NCBI GenBank assembly: GCA_023245755.1
Contig: JAHFJQ010000001.1
Coordinates: 1-36,017, forward strand
Reading direction: 5' to 3'
DNA: 36,017 bases
Source: an archaeon
Lineage (GTDB): Archaea; Nanobdellota; Nanobdellia; SCGC-AAA011-G17; GW2011-AR17
Both the position numbers and the translations under genes were made by a program. Within the stretch, counting starts at the first letter, position 1. Each line of letters opens with the position of its first letter. Below are positions 20,944 through 32,958 of the stretch, in pieces. The notes under the pieces are model-generated. The model was not told the origin of the DNA and made no database searches. It was given only the letters and a program-made list of their open reading frames with translations.

Positions 20944-21699
20944 CTACTCAAAAAACAAAAGTAAGACCATAACACCTATTCCTGCGAAAAGACAAACAAG
21001 TTGTAAAAAGGAACGAAGAGAATTTGGTTCTCCTCTATGCAATTCAGGAATAAGATCTGATCCAGCAATATAAATAAATCCACCTGCAGCGAAGGGAACA
21101 AACAGGGAAGTAAATCCTTCTAAGCGCTGTGCCAGAAGTAAAGAAATAATAACACCGAGAACCGAAGTCAAAGCAGTAAGAAAATTATAAAAGATAGCCT
21201 TAGGTTTTGAAAAGCCACCATGAATAAGAACACCAAAATCACCAATTTCCTGAGGGATTTCATGAAAAACAACCGCAATAGTCGTTGCAACTCCAACAGG
21301 AATACTTACAATATAACTTGCCCCAATAATTAAACCATCAAGAAAATTATGTGCAGCATCTCCTAAAAGATTCATATAGGCAAAGGTATGTATATGCCTT
21401 TTAGAATTTGGCAAATGGCAATGAATCCACTGCAAGAAAGCTTCTACAACAAAGGAAAAGAGAATTCCCAAAAGGATTGCAAAGGAAACTTGCAAGGTAA
21501 AACCATTGACTGCAACAGCTTCAGGGAGTAAATGAATAAAAGCATCACCCAAAAGAGCACCTGCAGAAAAGCTCACAAGATAAAGAAGGATTTTTTTGAG
21601 ATTGCTATCCGAAAGACTTAAAGTAAGCACACCTACAAGAGATACAAAGCTCACAATAAAAACACTCACAATGGCATATGTCCAGATTTCTAAGCTCAT
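20944..21699 (-). CDS. ZIP family divalent-metal (zinc) transporter
   Basis: Eight hydrophobic segments and the signature HEIPQEIGDFGVLIHGG. HNFLDGL motif. Confidence 0.85.
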   Translation of the reverse strand: MSLEIWTYAIVSVFIVSFVSLVGVLTLSLSDSNLKKILLYLVSFSAGALLGDAFIHLLPEAVAVNGFTLQVSFAILLGILFSFVVEAFLQWIHCHLPNSKRHIHTFAYMNLLGDAAHNFLDGLIIGASYIVSIPVGVATTIAVVFHEIPQEIGDFGVLIHGGFSKPKAIFYNFLTALTSVLGVIISLLLAQRLEGFTSLFVPFAAGGFIYIAGSDLIPELHRGEPNSLRSFLQLVCLFAGIGVMVLLLFFE

Positions 21700-21753: not shown

Positions 21754-22128
21754 GTGAGACAAACAAAACAAAAAGAAACATTGGAAGAAGAAATAAAAAA
21801 GAAGAACACGTTCTTTACAGCAGAAGATTTCTTTAAGGACATACAAAAAAAGAAAAGAAAGATAGGTATAGCCACAATCTATCGATTTCTCAATGAAAAA
21901 GTAAAAAAGAATGAATTACACTCCTATAGCTGTAATAGAAGAACATTGTTTTCTACAGAAAAGAAAACACACGCACATTTCTCCTGTGAAGTCTGTAAAA
22001 CACAAAAACATCTAGAGATAAAAAATGTAGACTTTCTCAAAAATGAAATTAGTGGAGAAGTTTGCCATTTCCAATTGGATATTACAGGTGTATGTGAAAA
22101 ATGCTTGAAAAAAGAAAAAAGGTTCTGA
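21754..22128 (+). CDS. Fur family transcriptional regulator (Zur-like)
   Basis: Winged-helix IATIYRFLNE, then HAHFSCEVC...GVCEKC metal-site cysteines. GTG start. Divergent from the ZIP transporter. Confidence 0.7.
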   Translation: MRQTKQKETLEEEIKKKNTFFTAEDFFKDIQKKKRKIGIATIYRFLNEKVKKNELHSYSCNRRTLFSTEKKTHAHFSCEVCKTQKHLEIKNVDFLKNEISGEVCHFQLDITGVCEKCLKKEKRF

Positions 22129-22259: not shown

Positions 22260-25232
22260 CTATCCCTTCACTACACCAAGGGGTTTCAATTGCACAACAA
22301 TCTTGCCAATACCAGCTTCATCACTCACAGAAACAACTTCATCAACGTTCTTATATGCACCAGGAGCTTCTTCACTAATTCCTTTCCAAGATGCAGCTTT
22401 AATAAAAATATGTTCTTTTTCAAGATCTTTCTTTACCTGCTCACCTGTCCAAGTATTATTTGCAGTATGTCGTGACATCAGTCGTCCAGCACCATGTGCA
22501 GTACTCCCAAAACTTTCAGCCATAGCCCCTTCTGTTCCAACAAGAATATACGAAGAGGTCCCCATACTTCCAGGCAGTAAAATAGGCTGTCCTACTTTTT
22601 GATACTTCTTTGGAACTTCTGCTCGTCCAGGCCCAAATGCTCGTGTCGCACCTTTTCTATGGACATACACTTCACAGCTTTCACCATCAATAACATGGGT
22701 TTCTAATTTTGCAATATTGTGTGCTACATCATACAAAGTAGTCAATTCTACTTTCTCTCCAAATACTTCTTTGAATGCTGTTCGTACTTGATGCCCAATG
22801 ATATGTCGATTAGCCCATGCAAAATTCGCAGCAGCACACATAGCACCATAGTAATCCTTTGCTAACTGACTCTGTGCAGGGGCATAAATTAAATCCCTAT
22901 CAGGAAGCGTTTTCACAATATCTGGAAAAGTATCCTCCATCAATCGTAAATAATCTGAACAGACTTGATGGCCTAATCCTCGTGAACCACAATGAATCAT
23001 AAGAACAATTTGCCCTTCTTCAAGTCCAAAAGTTTTTGCTGCATCTTTATGAAAAACTTTTCGTACTTCCTGTACTTCAAGAAAATGATTTCCTGCACCA
23101 AGTGTTCCTAACTGCCCTATTCCTCGTTCTCGTGCTTTTCTACTGACTTTACTTGGATCAGCACCAGGCATTTTTCCACCTTCTTCACAAAACTCAAGAT
23201 CTTCTTTGCTCCCATACCCACGAGATACAGCCCAAGCTGCACCATCACGTAAAACATCATCTAATTCTTTGGTACCCACCTTCACTTGTGATCGTCTTCC
23301 TACTCCAGGAGGAACATGAGTAAAAATAGCATCTAAGAGCTGTTGTATTTTGGGCTCAACATCTTTTTTGGTAAGGTTTGTTCGCAAAACTCGTACACCA
23401 CAGTTAGAAACAACCATATTTTCTGCAATAAAATTATGATCCCTATCATTCATAGTTACATCATAGACCATTCCATCATAAGGAACTAAGTGTATAGACG
23501 AAATTTCTGACCATGCTAACCCTTCATCACCCCAAGCATATTTTTTACAATAATCCTCAAACTTTAAACAAGAAAGAGCAATACGAACATTTTCTTTGTC
23601 TTCATACAAGGATCGTTCTATAAACCTTTCATTAACGTATTCTCCTTTAAGAGTACTCATAATAACTTGAGGAGGGAACATATACTCTTTCATAGCTTTA
23701 GCTCTTTGACGTGCTTTTAAACGAATATGCAAAACCTGTTCTTTATATCGGGCATAGTGAGCAGTAAGCATAGCAAGGCGTTGTTTTTCTTTATGATACT
23801 CAAAACCAACAGTCTCCAAAAAACGAAGATGATTTTCAGGATTTGTCTGAATCAATATCCTCCAGCCTGTTGTTTCTCCATCAACACTATCATATGTATA
23901 ACCGTCTACAGGAACGGGTTCACAACTAGTAACCTGAAACGCAGCAAGAAGAGTTCGAATATCATTGAGAAATTCTAAAGCATTCTTTTCAAGACTTCTT
24001 AATTTATTCATACCAAGACTATATTCCATAAAATTATACCCATTATTACTTTTGGGAGAAGAAAGTTCAGCACCAAAAAAAGAAGCCAAAAATAATCTCT
24101 GTTGCCACAAAGGAGCATTCATAACCCAAGTAGGAACACGATACTCTTGTGTCGTTTTTTTCCCAACAGGACATCCTAAAGCAACTAAGAGAGCAAAGAA
24201 GCCTGTTGCTTTTTTTTGCAAACTATACTCAGTAACAGAGAATTCATTCACTCCATATCGTGTTTTTATCTTATGCTCTCTTTCTCTATGATAAACCCCA
24301 AATCCTGTAATGCCAATATTTTGTAAATCCTTTTGAATGGTAAGCAGATCTTCTTCTTTTCCATAACAACTAACGACCCCTTGAGAAGAGAAATAAATAG
24401 TTCCATCTCCAAAAAGAATACCTAAAAACTTTAAAAGAACAGGAAGTTGTGGAGAATTATAACGCAAAGGAAGAATATTTAATTCTTTAAGAGAATGAAG
24501 AATTTGTTTTCTGGCATTACCTATATCAGTAATCTGAAAGATATCAAGAACAGAGAGTATATCATCTTCACTAACAAGGATATCATCACTAGGCTCTTCA
24601 TATTCTACACCTTTAAACGAAGAAATCAGTAAAGTATCCTCTTTCGAAAGTTCTTCAGCTCTTTTCATTCCATTTTGTGTAAACAAAGGATGATCATCTG
24701 TAACTTGAATGGTATGACCAGTCTTTGTTCGAATTTCAAAAAGAACACCAGAGCCAGGTTTTTTCATAAATGCTAATAGTTTACTATCCTTAAGTTGCTT
24801 TGTTGTAAAATCAGAATGACGTAAATGAAGGGTATTCCATTTTTGCTCAAGATCTTTAATCTGTAACCATGTACCATATTGTAAAGAAACTTTACTATCA
24901 TCTTTAAGACAGTTAATATCAAATCCAATTCCCCCAGGACTAATACAACCCGTTTTCGCATCAATAGCTGCAACGCCCCCAATACTAAACCCATAGCCTT
25001 GGTGAGCATCCGGCATCATAACAGAATGTCCTTTAATTCCTGGAAGGGTTGCAACATGTACACCTTGACAAATACACGTATCCTCTAACATCTTTTGCAT
25101 GAGCTTTTCATCAGCAAAAATCTTCACAGGAACTTTCATATCTCCCTGCTTTTCAATAATATAAGAATAATGATTCAACTTCTTGGGTTGAATATGCATA
25201 ACTGTTCCATCTTTTTTTTTGCAGTCTACCAT
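22260..25232 (-). CDS. rtcB: tRNA-splicing/RNA 3'-phosphate ligase RtcB, interrupted by one intein
   Basis: Exteins carry RtcB signatures: MPDAHQGYGF, GGIGFDIN|CGVRVLRTN, GAGNHFLEVQ, HCGSRGLGHQ, HRKGAT, PGSMG, STAHGAGR. The ORF is open from 25268, but ATG 25232 lies 2 nt after the archease stop and gives a normal RtcB N-terminus. Confidence 0.95.
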   Translation of the reverse strand: MVDCKKKDGTVMHIQPKKLNHYSYIIEKQGDMKVPVKIFADEKLMQKMLEDTCICQGVHVATLPGIKGHSVMMPDAHQGYGFSIGGVAAIDAKTGCISPGGIGFDINCLKDDSKVSLQYGTWLQIKDLEQKWNTLHLRHSDFTTKQLKDSKLLAFMKKPGSGVLFEIRTKTGHTIQVTDDHPLFTQNGMKRAEELSKEDTLLISSFKGVEYEEPSDDILVSEDDILSVLDIFQITDIGNARKQILHSLKELNILPLRYNSPQLPVLLKFLGILFGDGTIYFSSQGVVSCYGKEEDLLTIQKDLQNIGITGFGVYHREREHKIKTRYGVNEFSVTEYSLQKKATGFFALLVALGCPVGKKTTQEYRVPTWVMNAPLWQQRLFLASFFGAELSSPKSNNGYNFMEYSLGMNKLRSLEKNALEFLNDIRTLLAAFQVTSCEPVPVDGYTYDSVDGETTGWRILIQTNPENHLRFLETVGFEYHKEKQRLAMLTAHYARYKEQVLHIRLKARQRAKAMKEYMFPPQVIMSTLKGEYVNERFIERSLYEDKENVRIALSCLKFEDYCKKYAWGDEGLAWSEISSIHLVPYDGMVYDVTMNDRDHNFIAENMVVSNCGVRVLRTNLTKKDVEPKIQQLLDAIFTHVPPGVGRRSQVKVGTKELDDVLRDGAAWAVSRGYGSKEDLEFCEEGGKMPGADPSKVSRKARERGIGQLGTLGAGNHFLEVQEVRKVFHKDAAKTFGLEEGQIVLMIHCGSRGLGHQVCSDYLRLMEDTFPDIVKTLPDRDLIYAPAQSQLAKDYYGAMCAAANFAWANRHIIGHQVRTAFKEVFGEKVELTTLYDVAHNIAKLETHVIDGESCEVYVHRKGATRAFGPGRAEVPKKYQKVGQPILLPGSMGTSSYILVGTEGAMAESFGSTAHGAGRLMSRHTANNTWTGEQVKKDLEKEHIFIKAASWKGISEEAPGAYKNVDEVVSVSDEAGIGKIVVQLKPLGVVKG
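23403..24911 (-). mobile_element. Intein (503 aa) with LAGLIDADG homing-endonuclease domain inside rtcB
   Basis: Begins with Cys (CLKDDSKVSL) right after GFDIN. Block B is TDDH. Two LAGLIDADG motifs (LLKFLGILFGDGTIYF, FLASFFGAELSSP). Ends ...FIAENMVVSN, followed by the +1 Cys of CGVRV. Junction codons were checked on the sequence. Confidence 0.9.
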
Positions 25233-25234
25233 TT

Positions 25235-25663
25235 TTATATATCTAACACCATTTGTATAGTCACGCACGTTTTTTCTTCTTTTATAAACATATCGTTATA
25301 GGTACTCGACTTAATTTGTGTAATAATTTCATACTGGTCACCACTATCTCCAAGAACGACAGCAAGAAGAGACAGACCCTTTGTTGTTTCAGTAATACGT
25401 AAAGATTCTACCTGAGCTAAAAGAAAACCTTCTGTATCAACAAAGAATAAAAGTTCTTGAATGAAATCATAGAGAAGTGTTTCTTTGGATTTTGCTTTGA
25501 CAGAGACCTTTTTCTTTTTCTTGGCTTTTACTTTTGTAATATCCGTCATCGTTGCAAAAGTAGCAAGGGCAGCATGAGAAAATGCCTCATCAAGTGTTTT
25601 CCCATAAGCAAGAAATTTCACATCAGCAGTATGAGGAAGAAAAGTGTATTTTTGCATAGACAT
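25235..25663 (-). CDS. Archease (RtcB activator)
   Basis: YTFLPHTADVKFLAYGKTLDEAFSHAALA and C-terminal KSSTYNDMFI...VTIQMVLDI match the archease family. Sits immediately upstream of rtcB. Confidence 0.9.
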   Translation of the reverse strand: MSMQKYTFLPHTADVKFLAYGKTLDEAFSHAALATFATMTDITKVKAKKKKKVSVKAKSKETLLYDFIQELLFFVDTEGFLLAQVESLRITETTKGLSLLAVVLGDSGDQYEIITQIKSSTYNDMFIKEEKTCVTIQMVLDI

Positions 25664-25700: not shown

Positions 25701-26624
25701 GTGAAAAGGCGAAAAAGTATGACAAATCCCCTTTTATTCTATCTTTGGGAACATAGTGAAATACATCAGCTCTATACTCCTCATTTTGATGAACTTCTAC
25801 AAAGAGCAGATGCAATATACATGGAATTTCCATGCGATTACCCAGATATAGTCACAGAAATAGAAAGAGAAGTCAATAATTATAGAGCAACAGGAATATT
25901 TCCGAAAAGATTAAGAGATTCTGAACTCACAACAGAAACATACCTTGCTAGAAAATGGGTCAGTACACAAAAAAGGATCATTCTAGAAAGATATCCTGAA
26001 TGTACATTTGATCATAATGCAGAAGATAGAGAAAGTATGCAAGCACTAGTAACACAATCACTAGAAAGAGGAATGGAAAAAAAGAGGCAGTTCTACGGAA
26101 AAAGTACTGCCTATCAAAGAAGAAGAGAAGAAGCTGTTCTAGAACAAATTTTAGCAATTCCAGAAACAACAATTGTACTCTTTGGTGCAGGCCATAAAAA
26201 TCTAGCAAGAGAGGCACAAAGAAGAAGAGAAATAGAAATCATATACTCCTATCCCTTCGTGAGTCAATCATTTGGCATACAAGGAAGGGAATATTTCGAA
26301 AGAGAGGGCAGAGTAGATAGAGAACTATATTTAAGAGAATTTCTAGAAGATGTTTCAAATGCTGGACTAAGAAAAGGCTATGATCTTGTTGGAGAAGAAA
26401 AAGATATACTTGCACACGAGATTGCCGTACAAACTTCTATAGAAGATATTGAAAGTTATGCAAGAAGAATGAAATTAGGTATTGGATTTATAGATCCAGG
26501 AGACCTTTTTAAACAATTTGTAAAAGGAAAAGAAGAGATTGAAAGAAGGATTGAAACAGCAATGGAAAAGAGTTCAGCTATTCCAAGAATTGCAGGAATA
26601 GACGAAAGGTTTTTCAAATTTTAA
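25701..26624 (+). CDS. Hypothetical protein
   Basis: 307-aa Glu/Arg-rich ORF (GTG start; first ATG at codon 7). TIVLFGAGHKNLA is faintly reminiscent of TraB/ChaN-type GxGH, which is not sufficient for assignment. Confidence 0.45.
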   Translation: MKRRKSMTNPLLFYLWEHSEIHQLYTPHFDELLQRADAIYMEFPCDYPDIVTEIEREVNNYRATGIFPKRLRDSELTTETYLARKWVSTQKRIILERYPECTFDHNAEDRESMQALVTQSLERGMEKKRQFYGKSTAYQRRREEAVLEQILAIPETTIVLFGAGHKNLAREAQRRREIEIIYSYPFVSQSFGIQGREYFEREGRVDRELYLREFLEDVSNAGLRKGYDLVGEEKDILAHEIAVQTSIEDIESYARRMKLGIGFIDPGDLFKQFVKGKEEIERRIETAMEKSSAIPRIAGIDERFFKF

Positions 26625-26634
26625 GTTCTAAGAG

Positions 26635-27582
26635 CTATTTCTTTCGAAAAAGAAAATAGACAAGTAGCCCAACAAAAATACCAAATAGAACCATACCAAC
26701 AATAGGAACAACAGAGTTTGTCAGTAAAGAGCGTTGCAAATCATATCCAGTCAAACTCAAATCACCAATAACAATAGTATTAAAGTAACTCGTTCCCTGA
26801 AACAACAAAAAGAGCAGTCCGATAAACACAAGAAGAATTCCAGAAACAATCTGCGTGGTATGTGTTTCATATTTCTTTCCAAAGATCGTAAAAGAAACAA
26901 GTTTGCCCTTTATCCAAGAAACCTCTGAAAGACGAAAACCATCTACAAAGAAAGAAAGCAAAAAAAAGGGCACAAAATTTCCCAGTGCGTAAAAGAACAT
27001 AAGTAAAGCAACTTTAAGATAACTTCCTAGCACGGTAGCAATAAGAAGCACACCACCAAGAATGGGGCCAGTACATGCAGTCCAGCCAAGAGCAAAAAGC
27101 ATCCCTAAAAGAAACACTCCAAAAAGACTTTTCGCCTTAAACACTTTTACAGGTAAAAAAGAAAACCCCTTCCCCAGAATTTGCATAATACCAAAAAGAA
27201 TCAGAAAGAGACCCGCAATAAAAATCAAAGAGCTATTCTTAGATTGAAAAAGAAGAATACTCTGCCCAATTGCAGAAGCAATAAGACCTAAAGAAATAAA
27301 CACCGTAGTAAAACCCAAAAAGAAAGTAAGAGTATGTAAAGTACTTCGTTTCTCTAAACCATAAGAAAAGTACATAGGGATGGTTGCAAGTGTACAGGGA
27401 GAAAGCAGTGCAAGTAATCCTCCTAAAAAGGCAACAAAATAACTAATTGCTTCCAAATAATATACAGCCTGTTCATTATTATATTCTAAAACCTTTTGAA
27501 GCCCAGGAGGTAATTCCAAAGCAGAAGCTACACAAGTAAAGAGAAGGATACAAATCAAAGAAAAAAACAGGATTTTTTTCAT
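26635..27582 (-). CDS. ccdA: CcdA/DsbD-family transmembrane thiol-disulfide electron transporter
   Basis: Signal-like N-terminus and multiple TM helices. The two hallmark Cys motifs are LALLSPCTLATIPMYF and ALGWTACTGPILGG. Confidence 0.85.
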   Translation of the reverse strand: MKKILFFSLICILLFTCVASALELPPGLQKVLEYNNEQAVYYLEAISYFVAFLGGLLALLSPCTLATIPMYFSYGLEKRSTLHTLTFFLGFTTVFISLGLIASAIGQSILLFQSKNSSLIFIAGLFLILFGIMQILGKGFSFLPVKVFKAKSLFGVFLLGMLFALGWTACTGPILGGVLLIATVLGSYLKVALLMFFYALGNFVPFFLLSFFVDGFRLSEVSWIKGKLVSFTIFGKKYETHTTQIVSGILLVFIGLLFLLFQGTSYFNTIVIGDLSLTGYDLQRSLLTNSVVPIVGMVLFGIFVGLLVYFLFRKK

Positions 27583-27630
27583 AAAGGCAAAAAAGAAACC
27601 CAGTTAAAATAGTTTATGGAGAAAAAAGAT

Positions 27631-28095
27631 TTAGATATTTTCCTTAGCAGGAGGATCGCTTTTCTCATAAAGATAAAGAAAATTTGCAGCAGAAGTATGT
27701 CCCCACCAGCTCTTACGCAGTTTAATATCATACCCCCAAGCATCAGAGCCATGAAATGCAACAGCCATGGTAGCAAGTGCTAAACAAAAATCACGCACAG
27801 CAATATCATTATAGCCTAAACTAAATGCAATACCAAAAAGATGTAAAGAAAGCAAAAGTGCACTTAAGCGTGTAAACAACCCTAAGACTAAAAAGATACC
27901 AAAGACAGTTTCAAAAATTCCATTCAAATAAATAAAAGTTAAAGGCTCTACAGGAAGTGAACTTGTCCAAGAAGGAAGCCATGCTACCCATGCCCCAGCA
28001 TGAAATAATTGATTCAAACCAAACCAAAGAAAAAGAAAAGCAACAGAATAACGTAAGAAGATAGAAGAAAAATTTCGTAATCGTGTATAAGTCAT
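27631..28095 (-). CDS. DoxX/MauE-like redox-associated membrane protein
   Basis: 154 aa, four TM helices. FLRYSVAFLFLWFGLNQL and IFETVFGIFLVLGLFTRLSALLLSLHLFG fit the DoxX pattern. Upstream of ccdA on the same strand. Confidence 0.7.
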   Translation of the reverse strand: MTYTRLRNFSSIFLRYSVAFLFLWFGLNQLFHAGAWVAWLPSWTSSLPVEPLTFIYLNGIFETVFGIFLVLGLFTRLSALLLSLHLFGIAFSLGYNDIAVRDFCLALATMAVAFHGSDAWGYDIKLRKSWWGHTSAANFLYLYEKSDPPAKENI

Positions 28096-28205
28096 AAAAG
28101 AAATGAAGGAAAAGAATTATTTAAACCTACCGAAAAAACAACTATAGCAAAGAAACTACATTAAATATATAAACAGCAAATCCACAGATCAGCAAAGGTG
28201 AACCT

Positions 28206-28994
28206 ATGGAACACGAAAACGAAAGCGAAAAAAAAGTGTACAATCCTGAACACAAAACACATGAACATACGGAACATAAAGAACACCATGAGCAACATAC
28301 AAACCATGGTCCAAAAGAAAAACCTTCAAAGATTACAATTACAAATTGGGTTCTTCTCGTTTTATTCGCAGCGATTCTTCTTTTTAACCAATATCAAGTC
28401 ATGGGGCTAACATCTAGTGGAAGCTCAGGCTTCTCCTATGGTGGCGATGATCTTTCTGATGTAGATGTAACACAAATTCAATCAACTGCACAAGGAATCG
28501 CACTTCTTTTCCCAGTCAGTGAAATAAAAACGACAGAAGATGCAATTGCAATTATGATTCCAACTGGCACTCCAGAATATGGAGAAGCTATGGGAGTATC
28601 TTATGATGACCCAGTAACAGCTCTGAGTTTACTGGAAAATGGATATGCTTCATTAAAAGCACAAGCACAAGCTGATCCAGTAGTTTGGGATCGTTACCTT
28701 GCTCTTGCTGCAGCTCCAAGAGGAATTTCTTGTGAGTTCTGTTGTGGCGTTGGAGCACAGGGAATTAGTGCAGATGGTACTTCGCGATGTGGCTGTGCAC
28801 ACAACCCTGCAGTACAATCAGTAACATTATGGCTCATGTTAAATACAGATTATTCTGACGCAGAAATCCTACGAGAAGTCTACAGATGGAAATCTTTATG
28901 GTTCCCACAAGACATGGTAGGCCTTGCATTACAAATAGCAGGTGGCGATACAAGCGTTTTAGAAGATTTACCAGGAATGGTAGGGGGATGTTAA
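28206..28994 (+). CDS. Membrane-anchored protein with His-rich N-tail, extracytoplasmic Cys cluster and C-terminal LPGMVGGC
   Basis: GGTGA SD. N-terminus HKTHEHTEHKEHHEQHTNH, then one TM helix (WVLLVLFAAILLF). Cys cluster CEFCCGVGAQGISADGTSRCGCAHNP, possibly PCYCGC-like. Ends LPGMVGGC-stop. Confidence 0.6.
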   Translation: MEHENESEKKVYNPEHKTHEHTEHKEHHEQHTNHGPKEKPSKITITNWVLLVLFAAILLFNQYQVMGLTSSGSSGFSYGGDDLSDVDVTQIQSTAQGIALLFPVSEIKTTEDAIAIMIPTGTPEYGEAMGVSYDDPVTALSLLENGYASLKAQAQADPVVWDRYLALAAAPRGISCEFCCGVGAQGISADGTSRCGCAHNPAVQSVTLWLMLNTDYSDAEILREVYRWKSLWFPQDMVGLALQIAGGDTSVLEDLPGMVGGC

Positions 28995-28995
28995 A

Positions 28996-29217
28996 ATGAT
29001 GAATAAAAATTGGATTTTTGCTATAATACTAGCAATTTTAGTCGTTGTCTCTGTGATTCAAGCAGTGCAACTTAGTGGGATCAAAGATGACATAAGTAAT
29101 GGAGATATAAGCACATCAAGTGGATCTTCTTCTGCAAGTGTAGCAAGTTCAGAAAGCTCTACAAGTAGTAGTAGTTCTTCCTTAAGTGAACTTCCATCCA
29201 TGGTTGGTGGGTGTTAA
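28996..29217 (+). CDS. Miniprotein: TM helix + poly-Ser stalk + C-terminal LPSMVGGC
   Basis: 73-aa ORF starting 1 nt after the previous stop. WIFAIILAILVVVSVIQAV, then a Ser-rich tract, ending LSELPSMVGGC-stop. The motif is shared with the upstream gene but encoded with different synonymous codons. Confidence 0.5.
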   Translation: MMNKNWIFAIILAILVVVSVIQAVQLSGIKDDISNGDISTSSGSSSASVASSESSTSSSSSSLSELPSMVGGC

Positions 29218-29240
29218 TTTTTTCTTTTTTGGTGTAAAAA

Positions 29241-30323
29241 ATGAAAACGATAAAAGCAGAAAAAGTAACGTGGATTCTCTTGGGACTTATAGCCCTTGTT
29301 CTTATAATCAACCTCTATTTTACAACAGCAATGCAAGGAATAACAAAAGACCTTGCTTCGCAAACAGAAGAGCTCAATCGAGCTGCGCAAATACAAGTAA
29401 CAACCATTAGCGATGCAAGCTGTTCTGACTGTTTTGACATTTCTACTGTAGTGGATTCCATTACAAGTGCAAACGTTGAAGTGACTTCACAAACAGAACT
29501 AGACTATACAGAAGCAAGTGCACAAGAACTTATTGAAAAATATAATATTGAAAAGCTTCCGACAGTGATTGTTACCGGAGAAATTGCAAAAGAAGGCTCA
29601 CCGATTACAGGTTTAACAAGTGTCCAAGACGCTCTCATTTTTGAAAACCTAGAACCTGTATACTTAGAAGTAAGCTCTGGTGAATACAGAGGCAGAGTTC
29701 AAGCAACTTTAATTCAAAATAGTGAATGTGAAGACTGTTACGACCTAGGAAGCTTCGTTGACACACTCAAAGAACTCATATCAATATCTGATGTGAATAC
29801 CATCGAGTTAAGTGATGCCTCTGCAGAAGTGGAAACATACAACCTCTCAGAAGTACCAGCAGTGATTTTAAGTGGAGATCTAGCTCTCTACCCAGATACA
29901 GTACAAAAGCTAGAAGCACTGGGAGTATATGTAGGAGATGACCTTGTTCTTACTGCAAAGCTCAATCCTCCTTACTGGGATCTTGCAGATGATGAAGCAA
30001 AAGGCCTAGTAAGTATAGTTTATCTTACGGATGATTCTTGTGAAGACTGTTATAATGTAAATATTCACAAGACCGTACTAGAAAATTATGGCGTATTCCT
30101 TGCCCAGGAAAGTACAGTAGACATCTCTAGTAGTGAAGGACAGGACTTAGTAAACAAATACAGTATTACTCAAGTTCCAACAATCATCGCATCTTCAGAT
30201 ATGAAATACTATACAGACCTAGAAAAAGTCTGGGAAAAAGTAGGATCTGTAGAAGACGATGGAAGCTATGTCTTTAGAAATGTCAGTATTGTATCTGCAA
30301 ACTACACGGATCTGAGCGAATAA
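29241..30323 (+). CDS. Membrane-anchored protein with three tandem thioredoxin-fold CxxC modules
   Basis: N-terminal TM helix. Three ~100-aa repeats, each with a CxDC(F/Y) site (CSDCF aa61, CEDCY aa163, CEDCY aa267) and a downstream cis-Pro-type motif (KLPTVIV, EVPAVIL, QVPTIIA). Confidence 0.7.
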   Translation: MKTIKAEKVTWILLGLIALVLIINLYFTTAMQGITKDLASQTEELNRAAQIQVTTISDASCSDCFDISTVVDSITSANVEVTSQTELDYTEASAQELIEKYNIEKLPTVIVTGEIAKEGSPITGLTSVQDALIFENLEPVYLEVSSGEYRGRVQATLIQNSECEDCYDLGSFVDTLKELISISDVNTIELSDASAEVETYNLSEVPAVILSGDLALYPDTVQKLEALGVYVGDDLVLTAKLNPPYWDLADDEAKGLVSIVYLTDDSCEDCYNVNIHKTVLENYGVFLAQESTVDISSSEGQDLVNKYSITQVPTIIASSDMKYYTDLEKVWEKVGSVEDDGSYVFRNVSIVSANYTDLSE

Positions 30324-32526: not shown

Positions 32527-32958
32527 CTACCTGTTTCTTCGCTTAGAAGGCTTTGTTCCTTTAAAGTGCCAATATGCTACTCCTACCAAAAGAAGCACAC
32601 CTACACCAGCAAGGATCCATGGTAAAGTAGAACCTTCAGAAAAATATTCTGATGCAGGACGCTTTACTCCAGGTTTACAAACTCCACTAGCACAAATATA
32701 GTTAGAACCTAACGTTGAACAAGCAACATTTATAGTACTAATATCATTATTAATACCACTACCTGTACTTCTACATCCATATTCCAGAAGATTTGTACTG
32801 CTCTGACAAGAATCTGTTAACATAGATCCATTAGAAAGAGAAGCCGTACCTTTTACAGTATATGCAGTATTACTACCATCACTATCTGTACACACAGCAC
32901 TCACCAAGCCTACACCCAACAATAACAAACCTAATAGAATAACTATACTTTTTTTCAT
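32527..32958 (-). CDS. Secreted Cys-rich protein with conserved LPWIL C-terminal membrane anchor
   Basis: Signal peptide (ILLGLLLLGVGLVSAVC) and an ectodomain with 8 Cys (TDSC...LLEYGC...CASGVC). C-terminus is EYFSEGSTLPWILAGVGVLLLVGVAYWHFKGTKPSKRRNR. GGGGAGTGATG SD. Confidence 0.6.
   Translation of the reverse strand: MKKSIVILLGLLLLGVGLVSAVCTDSDGSNTAYTVKGTASLSNGSMLTDSCQSSTNLLEYGCRSTGSGINNDISTINVACSTLGSNYICASGVCKPGVKRPASEYFSEGSTLPWILAGVGVLLLVGVAYWHFKGTKPSKRRNR

What the first reader, a model, noticed from the sequence alone, without database searches (positions are those of the whole stretch)
26635..30323. Divergent five-gene extracytoplasmic thiol/metal redox cluster (DoxX/MauE-like + CcdA | Cys-cluster protein + miniprotein + triple-CxxC Trx-fold protein)
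Seen in the sequence:
- On the minus strand, a DoxX-like gene (27631..28095) is followed by a CcdA/DsbD-like gene (26635..27582, motifs SPC and TACTGP).
- This pair is divergent across a ~110-nt AT-rich spacer with TATA-like boxes on both strands.
- On the plus strand is a tightly packed trio. First, a 262-aa protein with a His-rich cytoplasmic tail, one TM helix and the cluster CEFCCG...CGCAH. Second, after a 1-nt gap, a 73-aa TM + poly-Ser miniprotein. Third, a 360-aa TM-anchored protein with three CxxC thioredoxin-fold modules.

Established knowledge: CcdA passes reducing equivalents across the membrane to Trx-like partners, and MauE/DoxX proteins are redox-associated membrane proteins.

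Inference: all five genes act as one envelope thiol-disulfide (or Cu/Zn-thiolate) relay. No DsbB or VKOR is visible in this window. I cannot name a described system with this gene combination, particularly one with tagged putative clients.
Basis: partly seen in the sequence, partly recalled or inferred. Interest (0 to 1): 0.8.

Follow-up and report, generated by a model that had tools for sequence, protein, structure and literature searches.

The report
DPANN cysteine-tail copper/thiol envelope module
This window from a tiny DPANN archaeon carries a conserved four-gene cell-surface module: an unknown six-cysteine protein, a miniprotein sharing its ...MVGGC tail, a three-domain thioredoxin-like protein and the electron importer CcdA. 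It most likely handles copper with thiols and contains a protein family that appears to be undescribed.

Summary

- **Known families:** CcdA (DsbD_TM), DoxX and the triple-CxxC thioredoxin-fold protein (T3) are confirmed by profile searches. T3 is also confirmed by a confident PDI/PDO-like model.
- **The 262-aa protein (A):** it matches no Pfam or NCBIfam family (PCYCGC included), no solved sequence and no solved fold. It founds a closed, apparently DPANN-restricted superfamily of about 280 clusters at 50% identity. The core is CxxCC...CxCxH, and the chain ends in MVGGC-COOH.
- **The 73-aa miniprotein (m):** it is a membrane anchor plus the same tail. The two tails co-vary between genomes.
- **Synteny:** A>m>T3>CcdA is specific, with 24 of 30 fully flanked loci holding all four genes. 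DoxX is not core (3 of 30).
- **Copper link:** related loci insert CuA cupredoxins, CopG/DUF411 and HMA genes into the operon. One T3 is fused to a CuA cupredoxin. A paralogous family (B) sits in CopG and copper-ATPase operons.

Best reading (about 0.45): an extracytoplasmic Cu(I)-thiolate carrier pair kept reduced by CcdA>T3, working like CcdA-TlpA-Sco or ScsB-ScsC-CueP. The main rival is a disulfide-forming relay.

It is a new variant of a known kind, built around a new protein family.

The parts
26635..27582 (-). CcdA-type membrane thiol-disulfide transporter (315 aa). The two catalytic Cys are at residue 63 (SPC) and residue 170 (ACTGP).
   Evidence: Pfam DsbD_TM scores 34.1 bits against a cutoff of 27.1, and DsbD_2 scores 29.6 against 24.9. 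Both Cys motifs are kept in about 47 of 49 locus homologues, and most homologues have exactly 2 Cys. It lies next to A in 56 of 81 loci and 27 of 30 well-flanked loci.
27631..28095 (-). DoxX-family membrane protein (154 aa). It is an accessory gene, not a core member.
   Evidence: Pfam DoxX scores 42.1 bits against a cutoff of 23.6, and DoxD scores 25.8 against 22.7. There is a weak sub-threshold NCBIfam HvfX match. It is present near A in only 15 of 81 loci and 3 of 30 well-flanked loci.
28096..28205 (.). 110-nt AT-rich divergent intergenic region between DoxX-CcdA and the A-m-T3 operon, presumed to hold both promoters.
   Evidence: GC is 29% against 36.5% for the window. An ATTAAATATATAAA tract lies about 30-45 nt upstream of the A start codon, TTATTTAAACC lies about 20-33 nt from the DoxX start, and GGTGA lies before the ATG. 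This is consensus resemblance only.
28206..28994 (+). Protein A (262 aa). It has a His-rich cytoplasmic N-terminus, one TM helix (about residues 41-63) and an all-helical ectodomain with six Cys. It founds a new DPANN superfamily.
   Evidence: It has 568 homologues, all unnamed and without Pfam domains. Invariant residues are C176, E177, C179, C180, C195, C197, H199 and C262. The AF2 model has mean pLDDT 84.6, with the ectodomain mostly above 90. Foldseek finds no match in PDB or BFVD, and there is no PDB sequence match. No Pfam or NCBIfam family matches.
28731..28802 (+). Cysteine cluster of A: C176-E-F-C179-C180-G ... C195-G-C197-A-H199.
   Evidence: The core CxxCC-x(8-20)-CxCxH occurs in 135 of 150 superfamily representatives. 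Of the 121 that have the core and end in Cys, 104 have exactly six Cys. The model puts a short hairpin between the two Cys groups.
28968..28991 (+). C-terminal tail of A: LPGMVGGC-COOH.
   Evidence: The tail is invariant in alignments A1 and A2. It is present in every one of the 80 related loci. Of 135 representatives with the core, 121 end in Cys (MVGGC 78, QVGGC 23).
28996..29217 (+). Miniprotein m (73 aa): a TM helix ending in QAVQL, a Ser-rich low-complexity linker, then the same tail LPSMVGGC-COOH (tail at 29191-29214).
   Evidence: It lies immediately downstream of A in 72 of 81 loci, most often with a 1-nt gap. The tails co-vary with those of A. The tail DNA of A and m differs at synonymous sites, so the likeness is not recent gene conversion.
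29241..30323 (+). T3 (360 aa): a TM-anchored protein with three thioredoxin-fold modules. The CxxC motifs lie at 29421-29432, 29727-29738 and 30039-30050.
   Evidence: Pfam Thioredoxin_3 scores 33.6 bits against a cutoff of 24.8. All three CxxC motifs, exactly six Cys and the cis-Pro loops are kept in 47 of 50 homologues. The AF2 model has pLDDT 94.8. Foldseek finds PDI, ERp44, ERdj5, QSOX and archaeal PDO at E from 1e-6 to 1e-4. In L035 it is fused to a COX2-type cupredoxin.

Best explanation
The core is a four-gene extracytoplasmic module, A > m > T3 > CcdA. In this window CcdA is inverted and paired with an accessory DoxX.

Proposed mechanism:
1. CcdA carries reducing equivalents from the cytoplasm across the membrane.
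2. The membrane-anchored, PDI-like T3 receives them on its three CxxC motifs.
3. T3 keeps the six cysteines of A and the single C-terminal cysteine of m in the thiol state.
4. A and m, tethered side by side in the membrane, use the Cys/His cluster of A and their two flexible ...M-V-G-G-C-COOH arms to bind a thiophilic metal at the outer face of the membrane and hand it on. The metal is most likely Cu(I). This would either buffer excess copper or load CuA-type cupredoxins.

What is shown: the family assignments of CcdA, DoxX and T3; the conservation, synteny and tail co-variation; and the copper gene context in related genomes.

What is inferred: the topology (from the positive-inside rule), the direction of electron flow, metal binding by A and m, and the identity of the metal.
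For: 1. Relay parts.
- CcdA passes the Pfam thresholds and keeps both catalytic Cys.
- T3 keeps three CxxC motifs and the cis-Pro loops, and folds confidently as tandem thioredoxin modules that match PDI and PDO.

2. Specific synteny.
- All of m, T3 and CcdA accompany A in 24 of 30 well-flanked loci across Woese-, Pace-, Nano-, Micr-, Aenigmat- and Iainarchaeal MAGs. The window's flanking genes are not conserved.

3. A and m share an invariant terminal LPxMVGGC.
- In 72 pairs, 62 are LP..M in both. Seven further pairs differ only by a conservative L>V in A.
- The only three strong deviants deviate in both partners at the same position: M>Q in both; P>R and P>D; LP>GG and LP>SS.
- Two further Q-tail A proteins also have Q-tail miniproteins. 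One of them, L164, looks closely related to the first Q/Q locus (L005), so these are not all independent events.
- This points to one shared recognition site or a tail-tail site.

4. Copper context in related genomes.
- 44 of 81 A loci hold at least one cupredoxin, DUF411/CopG or HMA gene.
- 19 of 30 cupredoxins carry the CuA motif Cx3Cx3Hx2M, and 10 of those lie between A and CcdA on the same strand.
- L035 encodes a T3-COX2-cupredoxin fusion.
- 6 loci hold P1B-type ATPases.
- CopY/BlaI-BlaR1-like and ArsR regulators flank many operons.

5. The paralogous B family.
- It is homologous to A (hhalign probability 99.9, E 1.6e-34).
- It sits in B > mini > DUF411/CopG (> HMA P-type ATPase) operons. 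DUF411 is present in 44 of 82 loci and CcdA in none.

6. Metal-type motifs on the small partners.
- His is enriched 5-6 fold in the cytoplasmic N-termini of A and m.
- 17 of 95 B-locus miniproteins start with a cytoplasmic CC motif, and 16 of 95 carry W[TS]xNExMNYEMHG.

7. Precedents from the literature.
- CopG is a thioredoxin-fold protein that binds a Cu4 cluster through CxCC and Met residues (PMC7558416).
- TlpA reduces the Cu-binding cysteines of cytochrome oxidase subunit II before Sco1 and PCuAC metallate the CuA site (PMC7558416).
- Most DPANN from oxygen-deficient zones carry a lone CuA cupredoxin (PMC10936187).
Against: - The window itself has no cupredoxin, CopG, HMA or P1B ATPase gene in 36 kb. 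The copper link rests wholly on related genomes and on the paralogous family.
- 37 of 81 A loci show no copper gene within the flanks.
- No metal binding has been measured, and the model coordinates could not be inspected. It is therefore unknown whether C262 lies near the Cys cluster.
- Four of the six Cys (CxxC...CxC around a hairpin) could equally form a structural Zn site or disulfides.
- T3 is PDI-like, which fits a general folding catalyst as well as a TlpA-like reductase.
- There is one counter-example to the tail co-variation, in the B family (L121: QVGSC on B, MVGGC on its miniprotein).
- The His-rich N-termini are not universal.
Confidence: 0.45

Rival explanations
1. General oxidative-folding or isomerase machinery. 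T3 is the archaeal surface equivalent of PDI or DsbC. A, a helical Cys-rich protein with a flexible terminal 'shuttle' cysteine, is the disulfide-generating or relay partner, in the way Ero1, Erv2 or DsbB serve PDI or DsbA. CcdA supplies the reductive, proof-reading arm. On this view copper genes lie nearby only because copper stress damages thiols.
For: - Foldseek places T3 with PDI, ERp44, ERdj5, QSOX and PDO.
- No DsbB or VKOR candidate lies in the window.
- DsbA-like and VKOR-type Trx-like genes occur in related loci.
- From general knowledge, flexible terminal Cys shuttles are known in Erv2 (CGC tail) and thioredoxin reductase.
- A is helical with a CxxC.
Against: - A shows no fold or sequence likeness to Erv, Ero1, DsbB or VKOR.
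- No flavin or quinone cofactor, or electron acceptor, is evident, and most DPANN lack respiratory chains.
- The homologous B family works without T3 or CcdA, inside CopG/CopA operons.
- m has one Cys only, so it cannot form an internal redox pair.
- The cytoplasmic His and CC motifs and the Met/His motifs on the miniproteins have no role in a folding catalyst.
Confidence: 0.2
2. The same thiolate carrier, but for another thiophilic ion (Zn, Cd, Hg, or As/Sb) rather than copper. In this window's organism it might serve zinc handling.
For: - The N-terminus of the window's A is His-rich.
- A ZIP zinc transporter lies 6.5 kb away, and the syntenic relative L163 has a FUR-family regulator next to its ZIP.
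- ArsR-family regulators occur in 11 loci.
- T3 gives weak ArsD and ArsE/MTH895-type matches.
- CxxC...CxC is a classic Zn(Cys)4 pattern.
Against: - The recurrent in-operon partners are copper-specific: CuA cupredoxins, DUF411/CopG and a COX2 fusion.
- Met in the tail and the MNYEMHG motifs resemble Cu(I) sites.
- ZIP and the Fur-like gene are not conserved next to A in other loci.
Confidence: 0.12
3. The MVGGC-COOH tail is a C-terminal processing or anchoring signal. It would be a lipobox-like V-G-G-C that is lipidated, or a sortase-like LPxM|VGGC that is cleaved. A and m would then be covalently attached to lipid or to the cell envelope, and the redox genes would only keep the acceptor Cys reduced.
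For: - VGGC loosely fits the lipobox pattern [LVI][ASTVI][GAS]C.
- LPxM resembles the LPxT of LPXTG.
- Lgt-like genes occur in 9 A loci, and classical N-terminal lipobox proteins (c7, lip6) are frequent neighbours.
- Strict conservation of a terminal octapeptide and its co-variation are what a signal read by one enzyme would show.
Against: - Only the A/B proteins and their adjacent miniproteins carry the tail within the loci examined, unlike sorting signals, which mark many dispersed substrates.
- No sortase, archaeosortase or rhombosortase gene recurs in the neighbourhoods.
- The tail lacks the hydrophobic helix and basic end of known C-terminal sorting domains.
- No NCBIfam sorting-signal model matches at a significant level; the best such hits are sub-threshold, E about 0.02.
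- Both proteins already have an N-terminal membrane anchor.
- Lgt-like genes are present in only 9 of 81 loci.
Confidence: 0.08
4. m is the precursor of a secreted or modified peptide (RiPP-like or a signal), and A is its maturation or immunity protein.
For: - m is a small ORF tightly coupled to a conserved unknown protein.
- In bacteria, DoxX genes accompany copper-binding RiPP (bufferin) operons (PMC11626156).
- The window's DoxX gives a weak match to the NCBIfam HvfX model.
Against: - No MNIO, radical-SAM, YcaO or protease genes recur nearby.
- m's conserved parts are the TM anchor and the last 8-14 residues, and the middle is low-complexity linker.
- A carries the very same tail as its supposed substrate.
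- DoxX is absent from most loci.
Confidence: 0.03

Closest known systems
CcdA - TlpA - ScoI/PCuAC - CoxB pathway for CuA assembly (Bradyrhizobium and other bacteria; review PMC7558416; the CcdA step is from general knowledge)
   Same: - A membrane CcdA and a membrane-anchored thioredoxin-fold reductase serve extracytoplasmic Cys-containing copper chaperones and a CuA cupredoxin.
- In related DPANN loci the CuA cupredoxin lies inside the operon (10 cases) or is fused to T3 (L035).
   Different: - A and m have no sequence or fold relation to Sco (thioredoxin fold, CxxxC) or PCuAC.
- The reductase has three CxxC modules instead of one.
- There is no cytochrome oxidase.
- The window itself has no cupredoxin.
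- The tail-sharing miniprotein has no counterpart.
Salmonella ScsABCD with CueP (PMC10907172)
   Same: - A copper-linked envelope operon combines a DsbD/CcdA-type membrane reductase (ScsB), thioredoxin-like proteins (ScsC, ScsD) and a small membrane protein with cysteines (ScsA).
- From general knowledge, the Scs proteins are reported to cooperate with the Cys-containing Cu(I)-binding protein CueP.
   Different: - Only the CcdA and thioredoxin-fold parts are homologous.
- ScsA has a CxxC and no MVGGC tail.
- CueP is unrelated to A.
- Scs is bacterial and periplasmic.
CopG / DUF411 (thioredoxin-fold protein that binds a Cu4 cluster through CxCC and Met; PMC7558416; in the CueR regulon, PMC12341060)
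   Same: - A clustered Cys motif (CxCC against CxxCC...CxC) plus Met is available as ligands.
- It works outside the cytoplasm.
- CopG is the most frequent neighbour of the paralogous B family (44 of 82 loci) and occurs in 16 A loci.
   Different: - A is helical, not thioredoxin-fold, and does not match PF04214.
- CopG has no terminal Cys tail and no partner miniprotein.
PDI / archaeal PDO (for example 1a8l) tandem thioredoxin-fold oxidoreductases
   Same: T3 is built of tandem thioredoxin folds with CxxC motifs and cis-Pro loops. Foldseek probability is 0.9-1.0.
   Different: - T3 has three active modules, a membrane anchor and a predicted location outside the cell.
- The inner CxxC residues are variable and polar or acidic.
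- TIGR02187 scores 45.8 bits against a cutoff of 185, so T3 is not a PDO orthologue.
Flexible C-terminal Cys arms of MerA (...CCAG), thioredoxin reductase (...GCUG) and Erv2 (CGC tail), from general knowledge
   Same: A mobile C-terminal thiol would ferry a metal ion or a disulfide between a buried site and a partner. This is the role proposed for ...MVGGC.
   Different: - The likeness is analogy only, with no homology.
- Here the arm is duplicated on a separate, anchor-only miniprotein.
- It carries a single Cys as the very last residue.

Membership tests
CcdA / DsbD_TM (PF02683) | Profile match above the curated threshold | tested here: met
   DsbD_TM scores 34.1 bits against a cutoff of 27.1, and DsbD_2 scores 29.6 against 24.9.
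CcdA / DsbD_TM (PF02683) | Two conserved membrane-embedded cysteines (xPC ... CxGP), one in each half of a six-helix core | tested here: met
   SPC lies at residue 61 and CTGP at residue 170. Both are kept in about 47 of 49 homologues from related loci, and 40 of 53 homologues have exactly two Cys. A crude hydropathy scan gives 9 hydrophobic segments.
CcdA / DsbD_TM (PF02683) | Transfers electrons from cytoplasmic thioredoxin to an extracytoplasmic thioredoxin-like partner | not testable with these tools
   Inferred only from homology and from adjacency to T3 (27 of 30 loci).
DoxX (PF07681) | Profile match above the curated threshold | tested here: met
   DoxX scores 42.1 bits against a cutoff of 23.6, and DoxD scores 25.8 against 22.7.
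   No MauE family appears at E <= 1 in Pfam or NCBIfam.
Thioredoxin-fold oxidoreductase (PDI/PDO-like tandem architecture) | Thioredoxin fold with a CxxC at the start of helix 1 and a cis-Pro loop, repeated in tandem | tested here: met
   Thioredoxin_3 scores 33.6 bits against a cutoff of 24.8. Three CxxC motifs and the Pro loops are kept in 47 of 50 homologues. The AF2 model has pLDDT 94.8. Foldseek hits to PDI, ERp44, QSOX and PDO have probability 0.9-1.0.
Archaeal PDO equivalog (TIGR02187) | Score above the equivalog cutoff | tested here: not met
   The score is 45.8 bits against a cutoff of 185. T3 is PDO-like in fold but is not a PDO orthologue.
   It is not listed at E <= 1 for the window protein, for any of 76 A members or for any of 30 B members.
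Known extracytoplasmic copper chaperones (Sco, PCuAC, CopG/DUF411, CueP, CopC, CusF) | Sequence or fold homology of A to one of these families | tested here: not met
   There is no Pfam or NCBIfam hit, no PDB sequence hit and no Foldseek hit (best E 6.5). The similarity is in motif type and genomic context only.
Known extracytoplasmic copper chaperones (functional class) | Binds Cu(I) through Cys, Met or His and transfers it | not testable with these tools
   Only candidate ligands (6 Cys, H199, M258) and the gene context are available.
C-terminal sorting signals (LPXTG/sortase, PGF-CTERM/archaeosortase, GlyGly-CTERM) | A motif followed by a hydrophobic helix and a basic tail, many substrates per genome, and a cognate sortase gene | tested here: not met
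   The tail ends at Cys with no helix or basic end. No significant NCBIfam sorting-domain hit was found; the best are sub-threshold, E about 0.02. No sortase-like family recurs in 81 loci. The tail is confined to A/B proteins and their miniproteins in the loci read.
Lipobox lipoproteins (Lgt substrates) | [LVI][ASTVI][GAS]C at the end of an N-terminal signal peptide | tested here: not met
   V-G-G-C fits the residue pattern only loosely, and it lies at the extreme C-terminus, far from any signal-peptide helix. Lgt-like genes occur in only 9 of 81 loci.
New A/B 'CxxCC-CxCxH-MVGGC' superfamily (defined here) | An N-terminal TM anchor, a helical ectodomain with a CxxCC-x(8-20)-CxCxH core, a chain ending in [MQ]VGGC-COOH, and an adjacent anchor-plus-tail miniprotein | tested here: met
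   The window protein has all of these features. 135 of 150 representatives have the core, and 121 of those end in Cys. The miniprotein is adjacent in 72 of 81 loci.

The most novel reading that the evidence does not exclude
The ...[M/Q]VGGC-COOH ending may be a new kind of protein-borne 'thiol arm'. Single-pass membrane peptides would carry metal-binding motifs at both ends: His-rich or CC motifs in the cytoplasm and MVGGC outside. They would assemble with the A ectodomain, which has no solved-structure relative, into a membrane-tethered Cu(I)-thiolate relay. That relay would move or present copper at the surface of ultra-small archaea and would be a DPANN-specific replacement for Sco, PCuAC or CusF-type chaperones. 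Alternatively, the terminal Cys may be a new covalent attachment site. On either reading this is a mechanism with no described homologue.
Probability: 0.2. Interest if true: 0.85.

Novelty: new variant of a known kind. Interest (0 to 1): 0.66.

Why it matters
- **DPANN cell surfaces.** DPANN archaea have tiny genomes and live attached to hosts, and what happens at their surface is largely unknown. This module is one of the better conserved surface-exposed gene sets in them. Relatives of A were found in 190 genome stretches, and A stays 45-60% identical across orders, while its thioredoxin partner T3 falls to about 35%.
- **A new family.** The central protein A matches no Pfam or NCBIfam family, no solved sequence and no solved fold, and no paper held here mentions it.
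- **An open question made testable.** If the module handles copper, it would explain how these organisms mature or protect the lone CuA cupredoxins reported in most DPANN from oxygen-deficient zones (PMC10936187), given that no homologue of the known copper chaperones was seen in these operons.
- **Biochemistry.** It would add a new Cys-cluster fold and a 'terminal-cysteine arm' to the known ways of carrying Cu(I).
- **Annotation.** It gives a concrete label to several hundred 'hypothetical protein' clusters (A, B and their miniproteins).

Tried and rejected
- **Named families for A.** PCYCGC (PF13798), MauE, ZIP and DUF5134 were rejected. Only sub-threshold noise appeared at the His-rich or TM region, and no member of the A or B families hits any Pfam model consistently.
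- **Solved relatives of A or B.** Profile searches against PDB sequences gave a best E of 0.89 for A and 0.11 for B. Foldseek gave a best E of 6.5 against PDB and 2.9 against BFVD. Nothing was found.
- **Remote relatives of A.** An exhaustive profile search of 1.84 billion representatives found only 280 clusters at E <= 1e-3, of which 234 are at E <= 1e-10. The 150 best hits listed mostly share the same core. No bridge to another family appeared among them.
- **Gene conversion as the cause of the identical tails.** Rejected. The two tail-coding stretches in the window differ at synonymous sites.
- **Sigma-70 promoter and terminator scan.** Not informative for an archaeon, and the counts are close to shuffled expectation.
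- **The N-terminal multi-TM 'GCPxCG' domain fused to some A proteins.** No Pfam family matched. It occurs stand-alone in 9 loci. Its identity is unresolved.
- **Literature.** Searches for MVGGC, DPANN with CcdA, DPANN with disulfide and thioredoxin, and DPANN with copper and cupredoxin found no description of this module.
- **Model coordinates.** They could not be inspected, so the distance between the tail Cys and the cluster was not measured.
- **DoxX as a core member.** Rejected on synteny.

Full report
**1. What is in the window**

- On the minus strand lie a 315-aa CcdA-like gene (26635-27582) and a 154-aa DoxX-like gene (27631-28095).
- A 110-nt spacer of 29% GC follows (28096-28205).
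- On the plus strand lies a 262-aa protein (28206-28994, here called A).
- One nucleotide later comes a 73-aa miniprotein (28996-29217, here m).
- Last comes a 360-aa protein (29241-30323, here T3).

Profile searches confirm three of the five labels.
- CcdA scores 34.1 bits on DsbD_TM against a cutoff of 27.1.
- The DoxX gene scores 42.1 bits against a cutoff of 23.6.
- T3 scores 33.6 bits on Thioredoxin_3 against a cutoff of 24.8. It also matches the archaeal PDO model, but far below the equivalog cutoff.

A and m match nothing. No MauE model is hit.

The most striking feature is that A and m both end in LP[GS]MVGGC-stop. They are the only two ORFs in the 36-kb window that do so.

The rest of the window fits a Woesearchaeota-type DPANN archaeon. 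It holds RtcB with an intein, archease, ribosomal protein S2, enolase, a ZIP transporter, a P2-type ATPase and an M6 peptidase.

**2. The 262-aa protein founds a closed, conserved, unnamed superfamily**
- A has 568 homologues in the word-indexed search. All are unnamed and lack Pfam domains, and all named sources are DPANN MAGs.
- Invariant positions are C176, E177, C179, C180, G181, C195, C197, H199 and the terminal P256-x-x-V-G-G-C262.
- An exhaustive profile search of 1.84 billion cluster representatives finds only 280 clusters at E <= 1e-3, of which 234 are at E <= 1e-10.
- Of the 150 best representatives, 135 have the core CxxCC-x(8-20)-CxCxH. Of those 135, 121 end in Cys (MVGGC 78, QVGGC 23), and 104 of the 121 have exactly six Cys. 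Most of the remaining 14 look truncated.
- The AlphaFold model built on 76 sequences is confident (mean pLDDT 84.6; most of the ectodomain above 90). It is all-helical, with a small hairpin between the two Cys groups. The tail is ordered up to about G260.
- Foldseek finds nothing in the PDB (best E 6.5) or in BFVD (best E 2.9). Profile searches against PDB sequences also find nothing.

**3. The miniprotein is 'A without the domain'**
- Seventy-four miniproteins from related loci align as a TM helix ending in QAVQL, then a variable Ser/Gly-rich linker, then a conserved ...NLQNLPxMVGGC end.
- Seventy-two A/m pairs were compared. In 62 pairs both tails are L-P-x-M. Seven differ only by L>V in A.
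- The three strong deviants deviate in both partners at the same position. These are M>Q in both (L005), P>R and P>D (L026), and LP>GG and LP>SS (the type-B pair of L051).
- Two further Q-tail A proteins were looked up, and their miniproteins also carry Q (L163 and L164). L163 is a close syntenic relative of this window. L164 looks closely related to L005, so the Q/Q cases are not all independent.
- One counter-example exists in the B family (L121).
- The two tail-coding stretches in the window differ at synonymous sites. Selection on the peptide, not recent gene conversion, therefore explains the identity.
- The simplest reading is that both tails are read by the same site, or pair with each other.

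**4. Synteny**

A profile scan of one genome per species found 190 stretches that encode a relative of A. Eighty loci were fetched, from Woese-, Pace-, Nano-, Micr-, Aenigmat- and Iainarchaeal MAGs.
- Searching the window's proteins against them gives m in 72 of 81 loci, T3 in 56, CcdA in 56 and DoxX in 15. The window's flanking genes appear in at most 4.
- Many contigs are short. Among the 30 loci with at least 5 kb on both sides, m is present in 28, T3 in 27, CcdA in 27, all three in 24, and DoxX in 3.
- The usual order is co-directional, A>m>T3>CcdA. The window and its nearest relatives have CcdA inverted upstream with DoxX.

T3 and CcdA themselves behave as expected of active redox proteins.
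- T3 keeps all three CxxC motifs, exactly six Cys and the cis-Pro loops in 47 of 50 homologues. The inner residues of the CxxC motifs vary.
- Its model is very confident (pLDDT 94.8) and matches PDI, ERp44, ERdj5, QSOX and archaeal PDO.
- CcdA homologues keep both catalytic Cys, and most have exactly two Cys.
- At long range A stays 45-60% identical while T3 drops to about 35%.

**5. What the neighbourhoods say: copper**

Clustering all ORFs of the 81 loci and annotating the recurrent families gives the following counts.

| Neighbour family | A loci (of 81) |
|---|---|
| Cupredoxins, some fused to a polytopic Fer4_5 domain | 26 |
| DUF411/CopG | 16 |
| HMA-domain proteins | 15-18 |
| CopY/BlaI-like repressor | 16 |
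| BlaR1-like M48/M56 sensor (usually paired with the repressor, divergent from A) | 14 |
| ArsR regulators | 11 |
| Membrane-anchored MarR-type regulators with an external Cys pair | 15 |
| VKOR-type Trx-like protein | 29 |
| Lipo-miniprotein with an internal VGGGCGV | 27 |

- In all, 44 of 81 loci have at least one cupredoxin, CopG or HMA gene.
- Six loci have a full P1B-type ATPase.
- Nineteen of the 30 cupredoxins carry the CuA motif Cx3Cx3Hx2M. Ten of those lie between A and CcdA on the same strand.
- In L035, T3 is fused to a COX2-type cupredoxin.
- These cupredoxins are probably the lone 'nosZ-like' CuA proteins reported in most DPANN from oxygen-deficient zones (PMC10936187).

**6. A paralogous family clinches the link**
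- L051 carries a second, shorter A-like gene with its own miniprotein. This B family has 1424 homologues and ends in SGGMVGGC.
- It is clearly homologous to A (hhalign probability 99.9, E 1.6e-34).
- In L081 the order is B > mini > DUF411/CopG > 145-aa protein > HMA P-type ATPase.
- In 82 metagenome loci, DUF411 follows B in 44, a membrane MarR precedes it in 42, and a 'CPLC' membrane protein follows in 33. In L120 that CPLC protein is fused to rhodanese. CcdA is never present.
- The B-locus miniproteins carry metal-type motifs. Seventeen of 95 begin with a cytoplasmic CC motif, some are His-rich, and 16 of 95 carry W[TS]xNExMNYEMHG.
- His is enriched 5-6 fold in the cytoplasmic N-termini of A proteins and their miniproteins, including the window's A.
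- CopG is itself a thioredoxin-fold protein that binds a Cu4 cluster through CxCC and Met (PMC7558416). Each A/B-plus-miniprotein pair therefore comes with a thioredoxin-fold Cys protein: T3 for A and CopG for B.

**7. Mechanism proposed**
1. CcdA imports reducing power.
2. The PDI-like T3 receives it.
3. T3 keeps the thiols of A and m reduced.
4. A and m use the Cys/His cluster and two flexible Met-x-Gly-Gly-Cys arms to bind Cu(I) at the outer face of the membrane and pass it on. This would serve buffering or the loading of CuA cupredoxins.

The module would work like CcdA-TlpA-Sco/PCuAC-CoxB or ScsB-ScsC/D-CueP, but A and m are not members of any of those chaperone families.

The family assignments, conservation, synteny, co-variation and context are shown. 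The topology, the electron flow and the metal binding are inferred.

The main weakness is that this window has no copper gene in 36 kb, so the link rests on relatives. I give this reading about 0.45.

The chief rival, at about 0.2, is that A is a disulfide-generating partner of a PDI-like T3. It is weakened by three points. B operons lack T3 and CcdA. m has a single Cys. No cofactor or electron acceptor is evident. Another thiophilic metal, a C-terminal lipidation or sorting signal, and a RiPP-like peptide are less likely, for the reasons given under the rival explanations.

**8. Novelty and verdict**

The logic of CcdA feeding a thioredoxin-like protein that serves an extracytoplasmic Cys protein is known. 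The client pair is new: a Cys-cluster fold with no solved relative, plus an anchor-only miniprotein that shares a co-varying terminal MVGGC-COOH. It is not in Pfam or NCBIfam, and no paper held here describes it. I rate it a new variant of a known kind, with interest about 0.66.

Noticed in passing
window 22260-25268 (-): The tRNA ligase RtcB (1002 aa) is interrupted by an intein (Pfam RtcB plus Intein_splicing), and archease lies next to it (25235-25663). The closely syntenic relative L163 has an intein-free 474-aa RtcB.
   Followed up: partly
window 29215-29225: An oligo-T run (TTAATTTTTT) lies directly after the miniprotein's stop codon and before T3. It could be an archaeal attenuating terminator that lets A and m be made in excess over T3.
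   Followed up: no
window 32527-32958 (-): A 143-aa secreted protein has six Cys and a C-terminal hydrophobic helix plus a basic tail, which looks like a sorting signal. It matches no family at significance.
   Followed up: no
window 25701-26624 (+): A 307-aa acidic protein next to CcdA has no family hit and was found in no other locus.
   Followed up: no
L028, L041, L055, L056, L059, L072, L078 (between A and m); L006, L008, L019, L080 (upstream of A): A recurrent gene pair is often inserted between A and m. One gene ('c7') is a ~65-aa lipobox miniprotein with an internal VGGGCGV motif. The other is a TM-anchored VKOR-type thioredoxin-like protein whose CxxC is often degenerate. This is a second 'thioredoxin fold plus GGC peptide' pairing.
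   Followed up: partly
L035 9170-10639: T3 is fused to a COX2-type CuA cupredoxin domain in one polypeptide of 489 aa.
   Followed up: yes
P0111, P0112, L058 7266-8669, L068 3669-5027; stand-alone in L051 12461-12970 and 8 other loci: A multi-TM domain with a membrane-embedded GCPxCG motif, and usually a second CxxC, is fused to the N-terminus of some A proteins. It also occurs as a separate gene. It matches no Pfam family.
   Followed up: partly
L081-L162 (type-B loci), e.g. L120 5437-9769: The B-family operon has a stereotyped order: membrane-anchored MarR with an external Cys pair > B > one or two MVGGC miniproteins > DUF411/CopG > a 'AHCPLC' membrane protein > two ~145-aa membrane proteins. 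In L120 the AHCPLC protein is fused to rhodanese, and a Met-rich 149-aa protein replaces the miniprotein.
   Followed up: partly
L006, L010, L016, L023, L028 and others; L043, L057: Record titles label several clearly DPANN-like contigs as 'uncultured Methanosarcinales archaeon' or 'Patescibacteria group bacterium'. These are probably binning or taxonomy errors.
   Followed up: no
window 20944-21699 (-) and 21754-22128 (+): A ZIP zinc transporter lies next to a small divergent ORF. In the syntenic relative L163 the gene next to ZIP is a FUR-family regulator. This could be a metal-uptake unit 6.5 kb from the cluster.
   Followed up: no
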